A stretch of 51,941 nucleotides of DNA from Patescibacteria group bacterium (GCA_028704015.1 JAQVLT010000008.1:1-51941), one strand, 5' to 3'. Positions 7,999 through 12,684 are shown, counted from the first letter of the stretch. Made by a program: numbers and translations. Notes: generated by a model from the letters alone, not told the origin.

Positions 7999-8217
7999 AG
8001 CGTTGGGAGCTAGAAAATTAATTCAGTATATCTCGCTCTTTAAAACATATTTCGACTTCTCCGCTGTTTTTATAAAATAATGATTTGTAAAAAGGGCAGG
8101 GAAGTCGAGAGCAAGCTGAGCTGATGCTGGCAGTCGTGCCGGCGCTTGGTCATTGGGACCACGGTGAAACTTGCGCTCGCGCTTCAAACCAGCCCTCGGG
8201 GCGGAAAGGGTAGGGAA

Positions 8218-8742
8218 ATGAGACAGAAAATTGAGCGGCATATGATTATTATGATGCTTCTGGTCGTTGTTTACGTGCTCGTGGAGAAACAAACTGGCTC
8301 CCTCCGTAATTTTACCATTTACATTATGGTTTTTTATTTCGCGATAGTTAATTTAGTGCACCATAAAGAGGTCGAAAAACTGGAGTGTGAGATCAGAAGT
8401 CTCCGCAGCATCAGTGAGCCCTTGGATTTGCCGGCTCAAGAGGTTACTCAAGAGCCAGAAGTGAGGCTTCTCGAGGCTTTAAGGCGAGAAAAAGAAATGG
8501 CTTTAAGAATCAGAAAGTTGGCCAAGCAACTCGCTTTAATAGCCGCAACGCTCCGAGCTTCTAAGCCAGACCCTCTTGTCGCGGAGTGCCGCAGTCAAAT
8601 CGAGCTGATGCTTTATAACAATTGGCCTCGATATCATAGCGATTGGGGAAATTATATTAAGCTCTTGCTGGCTCGCGCTAGCAAGTGTCAGGAGCGGGCG
8701 CTGCTGCGTCGGCGGGAAAAAAGTTGCAGCCCAGGTGACTGA
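8218..8742 (+). CDS. Orphan protein with two N-terminal hydrophobic segments and a helical tail
   Basis: ATG at 8218 follows purine-rich GGGTAGGGAA (the ORF track starts at 8146). No family recognised. Confidence 0.65.
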   Translation: MRQKIERHMIIMMLLVVVYVLVEKQTGSLRNFTIYIMVFYFAIVNLVHHKEVEKLECEIRSLRSISEPLDLPAQEVTQEPEVRLLEALRREKEMALRIRKLAKQLALIAATLRASKPDPLVAECRSQIELMLYNNWPRYHSDWGNYIKLLLARASKCQERALLRRREKSCSPGD

Positions 8743-8759
8743 GTGGAAAAATCCCTTGC

Positions 8760-8804
8760 CCCTGCCCAAACGCAAATAAAAGCGTGCGGGCAGGGTGTTT
8801 TTTT
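8760..8804 (+). terminator. Intrinsic terminator
   Basis: ccctgccc..gggcaggg stem followed by tgttttttt. Confidence 0.7.
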
Positions 8805-8868
8805 ATCTACGAATTACAAATATTTATCCCGGTATATCGGGACAGGCAAATTCACGAATATGAAATTA

Positions 8869-8896
8869 TTGACTTTTATAAATTAAATGATATTAT
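8869..8896 (+). promoter_or_regulatory. Sigma70-type promoter of the cys leader / cysK-cysS operon
   Basis: TTGACT (8869-8874), 16-nt spacer, TATTAT (8891-8896) with a TG extended -10. Confidence 0.7.
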
Positions 8897-8905
8897 ATAA
8901 ACAAG

Positions 8906-8989
8906 ATGAATAATATCAATTTTTTTCAAATAAATATTTGTTGTTGCGCTCTTAGCTTATATTGCCGAGAGCAATGTTGTTGTATTTAG
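8906..8989 (+). CDS. Cysteine-rich leader peptide MNNINFFQINICCCALSLYCREQCCCI (27 aa, 7 Cys)
   Basis: Translated by hand: ATG 8906 to TAG 8987-8989, Cys at codons 12-14, 20 and 24-26. It lies between the promoter and the terminator upstream of cysteine synthase. Confidence 0.85.
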   Translation: MNNINFFQINICCCALSLYCREQCCCI

Positions 8990-9014
8990 ATATTTATTAT
9001 AAATTTCTATAAAT

Positions 9015-9044
9015 TAAAAGCTCTCGGTGAACCGAGAGCTTTTA
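9015..9044 (+). terminator. Attenuator terminator (3:4 helix) upstream of cysK
   Basis: taaaagctctcggt-ga-accgagagctttta. The 5' arm GCTCTCGG (9020-9027) is also complementary to CCGAGAGC (8965-8972) inside the leader ORF. Confidence 0.85.
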
Positions 9045-9108
9045 TAATTAAACCTCACCCTTGCCATTTTTTAGTAATTAGGTGAAAAGGAGGAGGTCGG
9101 AAATTAAT

Positions 9109-10002
9109 ATGATTTACGCAAATATTTTGGAATTAATCGGCAATACGCCGATGGTAAAGATTAATAAAATTAGCCCTAATCAAAAGGTAAATATTTTTGC
9201 CAAACTGGAAGGATTTAATCCGGGCGGAAGCATTAAAGATCGTATTGCTTTAAAAATGATTGAACAGGCGGAGAAAGAGGGGAGGCTAAATTCTTCTAAG
9301 ACAATAATCGAGCCAACATCCGGAAACACAGGCATTGCCTTGGCGATGATCGGCGCGGTGAAAGGTTATCAGGTAGAAATCGTGATGAGCGAGGCAGTGT
9401 CAATTGAGCGAAGAAAAATGATTGAGGCTTTTGGCGGGAAAATTATTCTCACCGATCCAACTAAAGGTACGGACGGCGCGATTATGAAAGCGCGCGAAAT
9501 GGTGAAAAACAATCCGGAAAAATATTTTATGCCGGACCAATTTTCCAATGAATATAATAAATTAGCGCATTATGAATATACGGCGCAAGAAATTTGGGAG
9601 CAAACTGAGGGTAAAATAGATTATTTTGTCTCGGCAATCGGCACTTCCGGGACGCTTATGGGCGTGGGAACTTATTTAAAAAGCAAAAATCCAAAAATTA
9701 AAATTATCAGTGCCGAACCAGTAAGGGGGCATTATATTCAAGGACTTAAAAATATGGAAGAAGCAATTGTTCCTGCGCTATATAATAAAGATTTATTGGA
9801 TGAAATAATTATGGTTGATACTGAAGAAACATTCGACATGGCGCGCCGAGTGACGCGCGAAGAGGGGATTTCGGTGGGCATGAGTTCGGGGGCCGCAATG
9901 CTTGCCGCTGTAAAATTAGCAGAGAAGATTGAAAGGGGAAGTATCGTGACAATTTTTCCGGATAGGGGAGAAAAGTATTTAAGTACGAAGCTATTCGCTT
10001 GA
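9109..10002 (+). CDS. cysK: Cysteine synthase (O-acetylserine sulfhydrylase, CysK/CysM family)
   Basis: NPGGSIKDR (PLP lysine), EPTSGNTG, GTSGTLMG, GMSSGA, FPDRGEKYLS. Strong SD AGGAGGT at 9091-9097. CysK versus CysM cannot be resolved by eye. Confidence 0.93.
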   Translation: MIYANILELIGNTPMVKINKISPNQKVNIFAKLEGFNPGGSIKDRIALKMIEQAEKEGRLNSSKTIIEPTSGNTGIALAMIGAVKGYQVEIVMSEAVSIERRKMIEAFGGKIILTDPTKGTDGAIMKAREMVKNNPEKYFMPDQFSNEYNKLAHYEYTAQEIWEQTEGKIDYFVSAIGTSGTLMGVGTYLKSKNPKIKIISAEPVRGHYIQGLKNMEEAIVPALYNKDLLDEIIMVDTEETFDMARRVTREEGISVGMSSGAAMLAAVKLAEKIERGSIVTIFPDRGEKYLSTKLFA

Positions 10003-10085: not shown

Positions 10086-11540
10086 ATGAATAAAATAATT
10101 TTATACAACACATTAACTCGCGAAAAAGAAGAGTTTAAGCCGATTAAAAAGGGTAAAGTCGGATTTTATCATTGCGGGCCGACGGTTTATTGGACGCAGC
10201 ATATTGGCAATATGCGCGGTATGACTTGCGCTGACGTTATTGTTAGAACGTTGAAATATTCCGGTTATGATGTGACGCACATCAGAAATTATACCGATGT
10301 CGGGCATTTAACTTCCGATGAAGATGAAGGCGAGGACAAAATGGAAAAGGGCGCTAAACGTGAAGGATTGAGCCCGGATGACATCGCCAGGAAATATATT
10401 AAAATTTTTGAACAGGACACCGCCGCTTTAAATATTTTGGAACCAAACATAAAAGCGCGCGCCACCGAACATGTTCCGGAAATGATTAAGATGGCAGAAT
10501 CTTTAATTAGCAAGGGATATGCTTATGCCACTGATTTGGCAATTTATTTTGACGTAAATAAATTTAAAGATTACGGAAATTTATCAGGCCAGAGAGTTGA
10601 AGACAAAGAGTCCGGAGCCGGCAAAGGAGAGGTTAGCGATCCGCAAAAAAGAAATCCTGAAGATTTCGCGGTTTGGTTTTTTCGAGCAGGCGCGCATAAA
10701 AATGCTTTACAATTTTGGCCATCGCCATTTCAATCTCCTTTAGTTGAAAATGGTAATGGTTTCCCGGGGTGGCACATTGAATGTTCGGCAATGAGCAAAA
10801 AATATTTAGGCGACACCATTGATATTCATATGGGCGGCATAGAACATATTCCCGTCCATCACACGAACGAAATTGCGCAATCAGAAGCCGCTAATGGGGT
10901 TAAATTTGTTAATTATTGGATTCACAATAATCATCTCGTGGTTAATGATTGCAAGATGGCAAAGTCGGAAGGCACCTGTTACAGCGTTGAGGAGGTGCGG
11001 GAAAAAGGTTTTGATCCGATAGTATTGCGTTATTTTTTCTTGGGAGCGCATTATCGCGCCAAGCAGAATTTTACCTGGGAAGCTTTATTAGCCGCCAGAA
11101 ATGGCTTTGAGCATCTGAGAAATCAGATACGAGATTTAAGATTTAACCTGCCTGCCCTGCCTACCGGACAGGCAGGCAGGGCAGGAAATTCGGATTTAAG
11201 AATTAATGAAAATTTTAAAAATATATTCTTAGAAAAAATAAATGATGATTTTAATATGCCAGAAGCGTTGGCGGTGATGCAAGAAGTTCTAAAATCTGAT
11301 TTGTCGGCCGGAGAAAAATTAGGAACAATTTTCGATTTTGATAAAGTTTTTGGATTAAATCTCGCAGGAGAAAATAACGATTTGCCTTTACCTGAGGAAA
11401 TTCAAAAATTAATTATTAATCGCCAACAGGCGCGTAAAGATAAAAATTTTTCCGAATCAGACAGATTGCGAGATGAGATCGAAAAATTAGGTTTTACAGT
11501 AGAAGATAGCAAAGAGGGAATGAGGGTTTATAAAAAATAA
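10086..11540 (+). CDS. cysS: Cysteine--tRNA ligase
   Basis: CGPTVY..HIGN, PGWHIECSAM, DIHMGG, HHTNE, KMAKS (KMSKS-like), SDRLRDEI anticodon domain. Confidence 0.97.
   Translation: MNKIILYNTLTREKEEFKPIKKGKVGFYHCGPTVYWTQHIGNMRGMTCADVIVRTLKYSGYDVTHIRNYTDVGHLTSDEDEGEDKMEKGAKREGLSPDDIARKYIKIFEQDTAALNILEPNIKARATEHVPEMIKMAESLISKGYAYATDLAIYFDVNKFKDYGNLSGQRVEDKESGAGKGEVSDPQKRNPEDFAVWFFRAGAHKNALQFWPSPFQSPLVENGNGFPGWHIECSAMSKKYLGDTIDIHMGGIEHIPVHHTNEIAQSEAANGVKFVNYWIHNNHLVVNDCKMAKSEGTCYSVEEVREKGFDPIVLRYFFLGAHYRAKQNFTWEALLAARNGFEHLRNQIRDLRFNLPALPTGQAGRAGNSDLRINENFKNIFLEKINDDFNMPEALAVMQEVLKSDLSAGEKLGTIFDFDKVFGLNLAGENNDLPLPEEIQKLIINRQQARKDKNFSESDRLRDEIEKLGFTVEDSKEGMRVYKK
11147..11185. repeat. 39-bp CCTGC..GCAGG palindromic element in frame inside cysS
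   Basis: cctgcctgccctgcctaccggacaggcaggcagggcagg, read as LPALPTGQAGRAG and flanked by GATTTAA heptamers. Confidence 0.8.
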
Positions 11541-11613: not shown

Positions 11614-12672
11614 ATGAATAATTTTTGGCAAAAATTAAAAGATAAAAAAAACTCCGCCAAGGGCGGACAGGCAATTTACGCATTGGCGCCGATGGCGGGA
11701 ATTACCGATTCGCCGTTTCGGCAGATTTGCAAAGAATTCGGTGCTGATGTTTTGTATTCCGAAATGGCGAGCGCGACCGCTTTGTTTTATGCCGGAAAAA
11801 ATCTGAAAAATAATCCGACACTGGAATTGATAAAATTTACCCCGAAAGAAAAACCATACGTAGTTCAGCTTTTTGGCAGCGAACCGAAGCACTTCGCACA
11901 TGCCGCAGATTTATTGTCAGGGCAGGGGAAGGCTATCGGACTAAAAGCTAAAAGCTATAACCTAAAAGCTCCTCAGGGTTTTGATATTAATTTCGGCTGT
12001 CCGGTGAAAAAAGTTATTAAACAAGGCGCAGGCGCGGCTCTGTTTCAGGACTTAAAAAAATCCCATGAAGTAATCAAGGCGGTAATTGACAATACAGACT
12101 TGCCGGTGTCCATAAAATTGAGGAGCGCCGCCGGCAAGGTTGATTGTTTGAAATTTTTGGATCGCATGAGTGATTTGAATATTAGTGCCGTAATGATTCA
12201 CGGCCGCAGTCTAACGCAAGGATTTTCCGGCCCGATTGATACAGAAATTATAAAAAAAGCCCGCAATTATTTTGGCGGAGTGATTTTGGCCAATGGCGGA
12301 GTTGGCCCCACCCCCAGCCCCTCTCTTAGCCAGGAGAGGGGAGCTAAAAATTATGTTGATTGGTTGTTAAAAGAATCTAATGCCGATGGTGTTGGCATTG
12401 GACAAGGGGCGCTGGGGAAACCGTGGATCTTTGAAGAAGTGAAAAGTAGAAAATTAAAAGTAAAAAGTGTTAAAGAAATTTTTGAAATTGCTTTAAGGCA
12501 CGCGAAGTTAATGGAGAAATGCAAAGGCAAGCAGGGAATTTTGGAGATGCGGAAACACCTATGTTGGTACACGCAGGGTTTGCCGGGTGCGAGGAAATTG
12601 AGAGAAGACTTGGTAAAAGTAAATACGTTAAAGGAAATTAAAAATATTTTGCAAATAAAAAAGACGAGATAA
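11614..12672 (+). CDS. dusB: tRNA-dihydrouridine synthase (DusB-like)
   Basis: LAPMAGITDSPFRQ, VQLFGSEP, DINFGCP, SIKLR, IHGRS, ANGG, MRKHLCWY. Confidence 0.92.
   Translation: MNNFWQKLKDKKNSAKGGQAIYALAPMAGITDSPFRQICKEFGADVLYSEMASATALFYAGKNLKNNPTLELIKFTPKEKPYVVQLFGSEPKHFAHAADLLSGQGKAIGLKAKSYNLKAPQGFDINFGCPVKKVIKQGAGAALFQDLKKSHEVIKAVIDNTDLPVSIKLRSAAGKVDCLKFLDRMSDLNISAVMIHGRSLTQGFSGPIDTEIIKKARNYFGGVILANGGVGPTPSPSLSQERGAKNYVDWLLKESNADGVGIGQGALGKPWIFEEVKSRKLKVKSVKEIFEIALRHAKLMEKCKGKQGILEMRKHLCWYTQGLPGARKLREDLVKVNTLKEIKNILQIKKTR
12306..12341. repeat. CCCCTCTC..GAGAGGGG REP-like hairpin in frame inside dusB
   Basis: 8-bp stem at 12318-12341 with a C-rich leader, read as PTPSPSLSQERG. Confidence 0.7.
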
Positions 12673-12684
12673 ATCTCGTCTTTT
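12659..12684. terminator. Bidirectional terminator between convergent genes
   Basis: aaaagacgagat-aa-atctcgtctttt overlaps the dusB stop. Confidence 0.8.

What the first reader, a model, noticed from the sequence alone, without database searches (positions are those of the whole stretch)
8869..9044. Polycysteine leader-peptide attenuator controlling cysK-cysS(-dusB)
Seen: an uncalled 27-codon ORF (8906-8989, MNNINFFQINICCCALSLYCREQCCCI) with 7 Cys codons lies 9 nt after a -10 box, with no SD, so it is possibly leaderless. The RNA has the full classical layout. Segment 1 GCTCTTAGC (8948-8956) pairs with segment 2 GCCGAGAGC (8964-8972). Segment 2 pairs perfectly over 8 bp with segment 3 GCTCTCGG (9020-9027), forming the antiterminator. 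Segment 3 pairs with segment 4 CCGAGAGC-TTTT (9032-9043), forming the terminator. The first Cys triplet sits directly 5' of segment 1. Known: trp/his/thr-type attenuators work this way, and polycysteine sORFs act as cysteine sensors in mycobacteria. Inference: a ribosome stalled at CCC under Cys-tRNA shortage masks segment 1, frees 2:3 and allows read-through into cysteine synthase and CysRS. I know of no description of such a terminator-based Cys attenuator in a CPR-like organism. The second CCC, just after segment 2, may tune the response.
Basis: partly seen in the sequence, partly recalled or inferred. Interest (0 to 1): 0.93.

Follow-up and report, generated by a model that had tools for sequence, protein, structure and literature searches.

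The report
Cysteine-sensing leader-peptide attenuator before cysK-cysS
A 27-codon mini-gene with seven cysteine codons, overlapping a stop/go RNA switch, most likely lets this tiny uncultured (CPR/Patescibacteria) bacterium turn on its cysteine synthase and cysteinyl-tRNA synthetase genes when charged Cys-tRNA runs low; it is the textbook trp-operon design with an unusual amino-acid specificity and lineage.

Summary
The parts are a near-consensus promoter, an SD-less 27-codon sORF (8906-8989, 7 Cys), segments 1-4 and a hairpin plus U-tract terminator 65 nt before cysK.

Eighteen cysK loci from Patescibacteria carry the same architecture. In all 17 measured, a segment complementary to the terminator's 5' arm starts 9-21 nt after the first Cys cluster, just outside a stalled ribosome. 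In 16 of 17 this beats dinucleotide shuffles (p<=0.025). Both the 2:3 and 3:4 helices show compensatory changes, and four loci use unrelated helix sequences in the same layout. The peptides conserve only the Cys codons. In about 10 of 17 leaders the promoter -10 ends 5-12 nt before the ATG, so the sORF is probably leaderless.

It is not categorically new. Cys leader peptides are known in Actinobacteria, where they act translationally. A terminator-type Cys uORF has been predicted upstream of cysS in Rhodobacterales. I found nothing published for CPR or for cysK.

One feature is unexplained. A second Cys cluster sits 12 codons after the first, is almost always UGU, and lies in a U-rich tract after the 1:2 hairpin.

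The parts
8869..8896 (+). Sigma-70-type promoter: -35 TTGACT (8869-8874), 16-nt spacer, extended -10 TGaTATTAT (-10 hexamer 8891-8896)
   Evidence: 10 of 12 matches, TG present. Comparable promoters whose -10 ends 5-12 nt before the sORF ATG occur in about 10 of 17 related leaders.
8906..8989 (+). Leader sORF, 27 codons, MNNINFFQINICCCALSLYCREQCCCI. It has no SD and starts 9 nt after the -10, so it is probably leaderless or nearly so.
   Evidence: sORFs with the same layout lie upstream of cysK in 17 other loci.
8939..8947 (+). First Cys cluster (codons 12-14, TGT TGT TGC), the proposed sensing site. It lies immediately 5' of seg1.
   Evidence: The first Cys falls at codon 9-13 in all 18 leaders.
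8948..8956 (+). Segment 1 (GCTCTTAGC), which pairs with segment 2
   Evidence: MFE and centroid fold
8964..8972 (+). Segment 2 (GCCGAGAGC). Positions 8965-8972 are perfectly complementary to segment 3 and form the antiterminator.
   Evidence: -15.7 kcal/mol; 0 of 1000 shuffles as good. Covariation.
8975..8983 (+). Second Cys cluster (codons 24-26, TGT TGT TGT) inside the U-rich tract that follows the 1:2 hairpin. Its role is unresolved; it may hold a ribosome over seg2 or act as a pause tract.
9016..9043 (+). Intrinsic terminator: AAAA-GCTCTCGG (seg3, 9020-9027), loop TGAA, CCGAGAGC (seg4, 9032-9039), then TTTT
   Evidence: hairpin -17.9 kcal/mol. Covariation.
9109..10002 (+). cysK (cysteine synthase; SD AAAGGAGGAGG at 9086-9096)
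   Evidence: Pfam PALP. NCBIfam TIGR01136 at 390 bits and TIGR01139 at 357 bits, both above cut-off.
10086..11540 (+). cysS (cysteine-tRNA ligase)
   Evidence: TIGR00435, 417 bits
11614..12672 (+). dusB-like tRNA dihydrouridine synthase, probably the last gene of the operon. A hairpin with T-run follows at 12659-12684.

Best explanation
This is a ribosome-mediated (trp/his-type) transcription attenuator that reads charged tRNA-Cys.

Proposed sequence of events:

1. Transcription starts 2-3 nt before the AUG at 8906, and a ribosome begins translating the leader at once.
2. When Cys-tRNA is plentiful, the ribosome runs through codons 12-14 and over seg1 and seg2. Seg2 is then inside the ribosome or re-paired with seg1 when seg3 emerges. 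The 3:4 hairpin plus U-tract forms, and transcription ends near 9043-9047.
3. When Cys-tRNA is scarce, the ribosome stalls with codons 12-14 in its A site. Its leading edge covers seg1 (8948-8956) and stops short of seg2.
4. Seg2 then pairs with seg3 over 8 bp, the terminator cannot form, and RNA polymerase reads into cysK-cysS-dusB.

The 1:2 hairpin followed by a U-rich tract probably acts as a pause that keeps ribosome and polymerase in step. That tract includes the second Cys cluster.

Shown here: the sequence elements, their conservation, the geometry and the covariation. Inferred: translation of the sORF, the start site, stalling, pausing and the response to cysteine.
For: - **Anatomy and fold statistics:**
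- **Functional link:** the genes downstream are cysK and cysS.
- **Conservation:** 18 Patescibacteria cysK loci have a Cys-cluster sORF followed by a terminator. Within the order, 12 of 46 cysK upstream regions have such an sORF on the sense strand. That compares with 2 of 46 on the antisense strand and 2 of 40 upstream of stand-alone cysS (Fisher p about 0.007-0.009).
- **Antiterminator position:** a segment complementary to the terminator's 5' arm begins 9-21 nt after the first Cys cluster in all 17 measured. In 16 of 17, p<=0.025 against 1000 dinucleotide shuffles.
- **Covariation on a MAFFT alignment of nine leaders:** helix 2:3 is 90% paired, with three pairs changed on both sides. Helix 3:4 is 83% paired, with four such pairs. 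Slid controls reach at most 53%.
- **Unrelated helices, same layout:** L034, L042, L134 and L137 use different helix sequences.
- **RNA-level rather than peptide conservation:** seg2 is read in different frames, or lies after the stop codon in six short leaders. Peptides share only the Cys codons, with TGT/TGC interchange.
- **Footprint modelling:** with a stall at run 1, seg3 pairs upstream with probability 0.33-1.0 (0.63 or more in 16 of 17 leaders). With the ribosome over C20 or C24, or at the stop codon of the short leaders, the probability is mostly 0.00-0.44. The exceptions are 0.65 at L032 C24 and 0.64-0.70 at the C25 that begins the second cluster in L054, L075 and L110.
- **Other regulators excluded or parallel:** no known RNA family matches the window leader. 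One related genome has a T-box-like leader before cysK instead, so tRNA-charging control of this gene recurs.
Against: - **No expression data.** Only DNA runs from a landfill metagenome hold this sequence. The start site, sORF translation, termination and the cysteine response are all inferred.
- **No SD.** Translation therefore depends on leaderless or short-leader initiation, which is unproven in this organism.
- **Seg2 partly exposed at the stop codon.** In the long-type leaders, including this one, a ribosome at the stop codon only partly covers seg2 (modelled P(2:3) = 0.42 here). Termination under Cys sufficiency must then rely on kinetics, on 1:2 re-forming, or on slow passage through the second Cys cluster.
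- **2:3 beats 1:2 at equilibrium.** With no ribosome, most truncated leaders favour 2:3. This differs from trp.
- **Patchy distribution.** Most cysK genes in the order (about 35 of 49) lack the leader.
- **Small covariation sample.** The alignment has nine sequences, and three of them are closely related.
Confidence: 0.85

Rival explanations
1. The sORF is a free-standing gene for a functional Cys-rich micro-protein (a metal-binding or redox peptide, or a modified-peptide precursor). It would have its own promoter and terminator and would sit next to cysK only because the peptide needs cysteine.
For: The unit has its own promoter and terminator. There are two conserved Cys clusters at fixed codon positions, 12-14 and 24-26. 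Attenuation logic does not explain the second cluster.
Against: Peptide length ranges from 16 to 29 aa, and the sequence is unconserved apart from Cys. Six leaders have only one cluster. The best-conserved element, seg2, is read in different frames or lies outside the ORF. Seg2 and seg3 covary. No promoter lies between the terminator and cysK here.
Confidence: 0.05
2. The alternative helices form a translation-independent switch, either a small-molecule riboswitch or a protein- or tRNA-binding leader. On this view the Cys codons are incidental.
For: The mutually exclusive helices are conserved. A related genome uses a T-box-like leader before cysK.
Against: No Rfam family reaches threshold on the window leader, and no T-box sequence is present. 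There is no conserved aptamer-like core beyond the helices. In-frame TGY runs with T/C wobble variation sit at a fixed distance from an ATG and from seg2 in 18 loci. The association is specific to cysK.
Confidence: 0.04
3. The same sORF sensor acts mainly at the first hairpin. Hairpin 1:2 plus its U-rich tract would be the regulated terminator or pause, and 3:4 would be a second, constitutive, leaky stop. Alternatively, the output could be translational or act on mRNA stability, as in mycobacteria.
For: The 1:2 hairpin is followed by a U-rich tract in nearly all leaders (T fraction 0.53 against 0.35 overall). In L002, L016 and L127 it scores as the best terminator-like hairpin. The mycobacterial Cys sORFs act translationally (bioRxiv 10.1101/834739).
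Against: Complementarity between seg2 and seg3 is conserved and covaries. That has no purpose unless 3:4 is the regulated structure. The cysK SD (9086-9096) lies 45 nt beyond the switch and is not part of the alternative helices.
Confidence: 0.05

Closest known systems
Classical leader-peptide transcription attenuators of amino-acid operons (E. coli/Salmonella trpL, hisL, pheL, leuL, thrL; established knowledge)
   Same: It has a short leader ORF enriched in codons of the pathway's end product. Four segments form mutually exclusive 1:2, 2:3 and 3:4 helices. The last helix is an intrinsic terminator just before the first biosynthetic gene. The regulatory codons sit so that a stalled ribosome covers seg1 and frees seg2.
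   Different: - The amino acid sensed is cysteine.
- The sORF has no SD and is probably leaderless.
- In this long-type member the ORF continues across seg2 to a second Cys cluster, rather than stopping between seg1 and seg2. Six relatives do have the trp-like short form.
- The lineage is Patescibacteria, and there is no sequence homology to the proteobacterial leaders.
uORFC-8-2 motif upstream of cysS in Rhodobacterales (Breaker laboratory, RNA Biol 2021, PMC8632094)
   Same: It is a predicted ribosome-mediated attenuator with tandem Cys codons (positions 14-15 there, 12-14 here) and a terminal U-run terminator. It controls cysS, which here is the second gene of the operon.
   Different: There the Cys codons lie inside the first stem, and the motif is reported only upstream of cysS in alphaproteobacteria. 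Here the Cys run precedes stem 1, the first gene is cysK, and the lineage is CPR. Neither element has been tested experimentally. I could not compare sequences directly; Rfam 15 gave no hit.
Polycysteine leaderless sORFs of mycobacteria (Canestrari et al., bioRxiv 10.1101/834739) and the Cys leader peptides predicted in Actinobacteria (Seliverstov et al. 2005, PMC1262725)
   Same: A leaderless short ORF with consecutive Cys codons sits upstream of cysteine-related genes and senses charged tRNA-Cys through ribosome speed.
   Different: The mycobacterial elements have no intrinsic terminator. They act on translation, by sequestering the SD of the next gene, with polar effects. The actinobacterial predictions explicitly lacked terminators. 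The element here is terminator-based.
T-box leaders of cysS/cysK-type genes in Firmicutes
   Same: The regulatory input (tRNA-Cys charging) and the output (terminator versus antiterminator) are the same. One genome of this order has a T-box-like leader before cysK (L136).
   Different: A T-box binds tRNA directly and needs no translation. The window leader has no T-box sequence or Stem I features.

Membership tests
Leader-peptide (ribosome-mediated) transcription attenuator | [quoted passage not shown] | tested here: met
   7 of 27 codons are Cys against 1.2% genome-wide, and the sORF is unique in the genome. It is conserved in 17 other cysK loci.
Leader-peptide (ribosome-mediated) transcription attenuator | Intrinsic terminator between the leader ORF and the first structural gene | tested here: met
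   8-bp GC-rich stem (12 bp with the A/U extension), followed by a U-tract, at 9016-9043 and 65 nt before cysK. Helix covariation.
Leader-peptide (ribosome-mediated) transcription attenuator | Antiterminator that shares a strand with the terminator (mutually exclusive 2:3 and 3:4) | tested here: met
   8965-8972 is perfectly complementary to 9020-9027. 16 of 17 leaders are significant against shuffles. Compensatory changes.
Leader-peptide (ribosome-mediated) transcription attenuator | Regulatory codons placed so that a stalled ribosome masks seg1 but not seg2 | tested here: met
   Seg2 starts 9-21 nt after the last codon of the first Cys cluster in all 17 leaders. Footprint modelling. This is geometry only, not a measurement.
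Leader-peptide (ribosome-mediated) transcription attenuator | Downstream genes belong to the metabolism of the sensed amino acid | tested here: met
   cysK and cysS both score above the NCBIfam cut-offs.
Leader-peptide (ribosome-mediated) transcription attenuator | Read-through rises when the cognate charged tRNA is limiting and depends on translation of the leader | not testable with these tools
   No RNA runs hold the locus. Reporter or in vitro assays are needed.
Leader-peptide (ribosome-mediated) transcription attenuator | 1:2 hairpin acting as a transcription pause that synchronises ribosome and polymerase | tested here: inconclusive
   The 1:2 hairpin is predicted. A U-rich tract follows seg2 in most leaders. 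Seg1 is not alignable across the family, and pausing cannot be measured here.
Mycobacterial polycysteine leaderless sORF translational attenuators | Leaderless sORF with consecutive Cys codons | tested here: inconclusive
   The Cys run is present. The -10 ends 9 nt before the ATG and there is no SD, but there is no start-site mapping.
Mycobacterial polycysteine leaderless sORF translational attenuators | Output by sequestering the SD of the next gene, without transcription termination | tested here: not met
   An intrinsic terminator is present and conserved. The cysK SD (9086-9096) lies outside the alternative helices. The mechanism of the mycobacterial elements is as described.
uORFC-8-2 motif (Rhodobacterales cysS) | Conserved two-stem consensus with the tandem Cys codons inside stem 1, upstream of cysS in Rhodobacterales | tested here: not met
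   Here the Cys run lies 5' of stem 1, the first gene is cysK, and the lineage is Patescibacteria. No model of the motif was available for scoring; Rfam gave no hit.
T-box leader | Stem I with specifier loop, plus the conserved T-box sequence AGGGUGGNACCGCG in the antiterminator | tested here: not met
   No T-box match on 8700-9200, even at E<=10.

The most novel reading that the evidence does not exclude
The leader is a two-checkpoint device rather than a simple trp copy.

The first Cys cluster (codons 11-14) gives the 'go' signal. A second cluster lies exactly one ribosome-length (12 codons) downstream. It is written almost only in UGU, inside the U-rich tract after the 1:2 hairpin. It could do two things at once: pause RNA polymerase, and hold the ribosome over seg2.

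Read-through would then depend on where, not only whether, the pioneer ribosome is delayed. That would sharpen the response in an organism with a single tRNA-Cys gene and leaderless initiation. If so, the family would give a compact natural model of transcription-translation coupling in CPR bacteria.
Probability: 0.2. Interest if true: 0.7.

Novelty: new member of a known kind. Interest (0 to 1): 0.55.

Why it matters
**Regulation in CPR bacteria.** Almost nothing is known about gene regulation in CPR/Patescibacteria, which cannot be grown alone. A conserved leader-peptide attenuator implies three things about these cells:

- They use intrinsic termination.
- Transcription and translation are tightly coupled.
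- They probably initiate translation on leaderless mRNAs.

**What CysK is for.** The element also indicates that CysK serves cysteine supply in these organisms. This genome has no detectable serine acetyltransferase, and cysK is rare in the phylum (3 of 400 sampled genomes). Control by Cys-tRNA charging argues that the enzyme makes cysteine from a scavenged precursor rather than doing something unrelated.

**The amino acid sensed.** Cysteine-specific, terminator-based attenuation has so far only been predicted (Rhodobacterales cysS) and never tested. This family is small (about 140 nt) and well defined, so it could be tested in a laboratory host.

Tried and rejected
- **Rfam scan of the leader:** only sub-threshold chance hits (FasX 31 bits against a threshold of 100; His_leader 18 against 49). 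It is not a known family.
- **Simple terminator scan:** it misses the attenuator terminator because the A4/U4 extension uses up the T-run. This is not evidence against the terminator.
- **Covariance model R1:** built from nine long-type leaders and searched over all 316 genomes of the order. Only the cysK-linked copies score well (G000, G052, G072, G207, G006, G037). Inspection showed the 15 weaker hits are ordinary gene-end terminators. This includes a second hit in the window's own genome (C2:2813-2924). I therefore found no evidence for a wider regulon.
- **Stand-alone cysS genes:** 40 upstream regions were fetched. Only one (L178) has a Cys-run sORF, so the leader is tied to cysK rather than to cysS.
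- **Two other CCC-containing intergenic sORFs in this genome** (C4:9461, C6:49687): both have TTG starts, no terminator and no cysteine-related gene nearby, so I rejected them.
- **Transcript evidence:** only three DNA runs from a landfill metagenome hold the sequence.
- **Leaders further upstream in leaderless cysK loci:** the genes preceding cysK there are unrelated (murF, ddl, mgtE, an ATPase and others) with short gaps. Those cysK genes simply lack this control.
- **Full masking model:** it overstated the protection of seg2 by a ribosome at the stop codon. I replaced it with a 30-nt footprint model.

Full report
**Observation**

The window between the terminator of the upstream orphan gene (about 8768-8806) and cysK holds a complete unit. 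Its parts are:

- **Promoter.** TTGACT (8869-8874), a 16-nt spacer, and an extended -10 TGaTATTAT ending at 8896.
- **sORF.** ATG at 8906 with no Shine-Dalgarno sequence, 27 codons, MNNINFFQINICCCALSLYCREQCCCI. Cys codons are at 12-14, 20 and 24-26.
- **Segments.** seg1 GCTCTTAGC (8948-8956) and seg2 GCCGAGAGC (8964-8972).
- **Terminator.** AAAA-GCTCTCGG / TGAA / CCGAGAGC-TTTT (9016-9043).

cysK starts at 9109 behind a strong SD. cysS and a dusB-like gene follow.

RNAfold gives the 1:2 hairpin plus the terminator (z = -4.8). Seg2 is perfectly complementary to seg3 over 8 bp (-15.7 kcal/mol; none of 1000 dinucleotide shuffles is as good).

In the whole 1.08-Mb genome this is the only ATG-initiated intergenic sORF with a CCC run, among 27,451 sORFs. 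No promoter-like site lies between the terminator and cysK.

**Comparative evidence**

The genome is a small CPR/Patescibacteria MAG. Its relatives are named Falkowbacteria, Moranbacteria and Parcubacteria, and it comes from a landfill metagenome.

cysK is present in 49 of 316 species of its order, and in only 3 of 400 other genomes sampled across the phylum.

I scanned the upstream regions of these cysK genes and of the closest cysK loci in public genomes. Eighteen loci have a short ATG-initiated ORF with a Cys cluster, followed by a hairpin plus T-run terminator. Within the order, such sORFs occur in:

- 12 of 46 cysK upstream regions on the sense strand;
- 2 of 46 on the antisense strand;
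- 2 of 40 upstream of stand-alone cysS genes.

The peptides share nothing but the Cys codons, and TGT and TGC interchange freely.

**The RNA switch is what is conserved**

For each of 17 leaders I asked where the best partner for the terminator's 5' arm lies upstream.

- In all 17 it begins 9-21 nt after the last codon of the first Cys cluster. In 16 of 17 it is better than dinucleotide shuffles (p<=0.025). That distance matches the reach of a ribosome stalled on those codons.
- The segment is read in different frames in different leaders (CRE, PRV, SRA, ARE). In six short leaders it lies just after the stop codon, as in trpL.
- On an unsupervised MAFFT alignment of nine long-type leaders, helix 2:3 is 90% paired, with three positions changed on both sides. 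Helix 3:4 is 83% paired, with four such positions. Registers slid by 1-3 columns give at most 53%.
- Four leaders (L034, L042, L134, L137) keep the layout with unrelated helix sequences. One example is AGAGGTTGGTTTT against AAAACCAGCCTCT, 13 bp.

**Geometry**

- The first Cys falls at codon 9-13 in every leader.
- Seg2 starts 49-64 nt from the AUG.
- In about 10 of 17 leaders a strong TTGAC(A/T)-type promoter places its -10 only 5-12 nt before the ATG. There is no SD, so the sORF is most likely translated from a leaderless or near-leaderless mRNA.

I treat that only as a lead.

**Mechanism (inferred)**

I placed a 30-nt ribosome footprint with the last codon of the first cluster in the A site.

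- On a transcript that ends at the terminator loop, seg3 then pairs with seg2 with probability 0.33-1.0 (0.63 or more in 16 of 17 leaders).
- With the ribosome over Cys20 or Cys24, or at the stop codon of the short leaders, seg2 is covered and the probability is mostly 0.00-0.44. The exceptions are 0.65 at L032 C24 and 0.64-0.70 at the C25 that begins the second cluster in L054, L075 and L110.

So a stall at the first cluster favours read-through, and smooth translation favours termination.

**What does not fit a plain trp copy**

- In the long-type leaders, including this one, the ORF runs on across seg2 to a second Cys cluster at codons 24-26. That is 12 codons after the first cluster in seven leaders.
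- A ribosome sitting at the stop codon covers seg2 only partly (modelled P(2:3) = 0.42 here).
- The 14 nt after seg2 are U-rich in nearly all leaders (T fraction 0.53 against 0.35 overall).
- Cys codons after seg2 are 19 TGT to 1 TGC, against 33 to 17 before seg2 (p = 0.014).

I read the 1:2 hairpin plus this U-rich tract as a probable pause signal, like the trp 1:2 pause. The second cluster may be a pause tract written in Cys codons that also slows the ribosome while it covers seg2. This is a hypothesis. I could not test it.

**Rivals**

- **A free-standing Cys-rich micro-protein gene.** This is unlikely. The peptide is unconserved, seg2 conservation is independent of frame, seg2 and seg3 covary, and cysK has no promoter of its own.
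- **A translation-independent riboswitch or T-box.** This is unlikely too. No known RNA family matches, and the in-frame TGY runs keep a fixed distance from both the ATG and seg2.
- **A variant in which the first hairpin is the regulated stop, or in which the output is translational.** I cannot exclude it, but it leaves the seg2/seg3 covariation unexplained.

**Scope of the regulon**

A covariance model of the long type, run over all 316 genomes of the order, found only cysK-linked copies. The weaker hits were ordinary terminators. About 35 of the 49 cysK genes in the order lack the leader. Many of those sit directly behind unrelated genes. One has a T-box-like leader instead.

**Comparison with the literature**

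- Seliverstov et al. 2005 predicted Cys leader peptides without terminators in Actinobacteria.
- Canestrari et al. showed that mycobacterial polycysteine leaderless sORFs act on translation, not termination. In 2020 they wrote that uORF attenuation for cysteine had not been described.
- The Breaker laboratory predicted a terminator-type tandem-Cys uORF upstream of cysS in Rhodobacterales in 2021.
- A full-text search found no paper combining leader peptides, attenuation and CPR.

Unchecked notes from this scan report similar Met/Cys leaders before metY-cysK and cysE-cysK in other phyla, and one before cysK in CPR. The design is probably widespread but under-described.

**Verdict**

This is a real, conserved, cysteine-specific member of the classical leader-peptide attenuator class, in a lineage and before a gene where none is published. 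It is not a new kind of system. Confidence in the mechanism is about 0.85, and it rests on sequence and comparison only.

Noticed in passing
L136 950-1165 (- strand; G310:C17, directly upstream of cysK): This genome of the same order has a T-box-like leader before cysK instead of a Cys sORF. It scores 42 bits (gathering threshold 93) over the full model length, with a canonical AGGGUGGAACCGCG...CGUCCC antiterminator core. A tRNA gene lies about 350 nt upstream. The specifier codon was not determined.
   Followed up: partly
L134 (G081:C108), leader about 325 nt upstream of cysK; tRNA at locus 932-1004: A Cys leader (MNYQISQNYQNCCCNFF plus a terminator) is followed by a tRNA-Cys(GCA) gene and then cysK, all on one strand. 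The tRNA also has an extended -10-like TGTATAAT just before it, so it may have its own promoter.
   Followed up: partly
L178 300-460 (G053:C19, upstream of a stand-alone cysS; this genome has no cysK): The sORF MSGVNKSQLNCCCIFKA is followed, directly after its stop codon, by a long near-perfect hairpin (AGAGGCTAAATCTCTACGATTTTT / AAAAATCGTAGAGGTTTAGCCTCT). The 3' arm (GTTTAGC) could also pair with GCTAAAC about 10 nt before the cysS ATG. This may be a translational variant of the Cys sensor.
   Followed up: no
whole genome G000: No serine acetyltransferase (cysE, TIGR01172) was detected in this 93%-complete genome, although cysK is present and regulated. There is a single tRNA-Cys gene (C6:111572-111644). 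The source of CysK's substrate is unknown.
   Followed up: partly
L072 about -113 to -40 before cysK; L047 about -218 to -176 before cysK: MAGs labelled as archaea (Methanosarcinales by automated assignment; Woesearchaeota) carry the short sORFs MKHTLCCC and MRQYKTYFRCCCLF upstream of a cysK that is 70-74% identical to the window's. In L072 the sORF follows a TATA-like TTTAAATATA and is followed by an oligo-T run, but cysK seems to have its own TATA box. I did not resolve whether this is chance, mis-binning or a real archaeal counterpart.
   Followed up: no
window 9109-10002 and loci L039-L109: This cysK is 69-75% identical to cysK genes of Bacteroidales, Clostridia, Dehalococcoidia, DPANN and methanogen MAGs. 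Yet it is present in only about 1% of Patescibacteria outside this order. That pattern suggests horizontal acquisition.
   Followed up: no
L005 about -175 to -5 before cysK (G020; similar in L006 and L008): A different leader precedes cysK in family f21. It has a TTGACA promoter, a 32-codon sORF with one Cys (MNISIFKMSLSGGCGGSGSKPVLRMVSHESKV) and a terminator just before the ATG. Its function is unknown.
   Followed up: no
window 8764-8806: The GC-rich orphan gene 8146-8742 ends with its own hairpin plus T7 terminator (GCCCCTGCCC...GGGCAGGG-TGTTTTTTT). The cysK leader is therefore a separate transcription unit.
   Followed up: no
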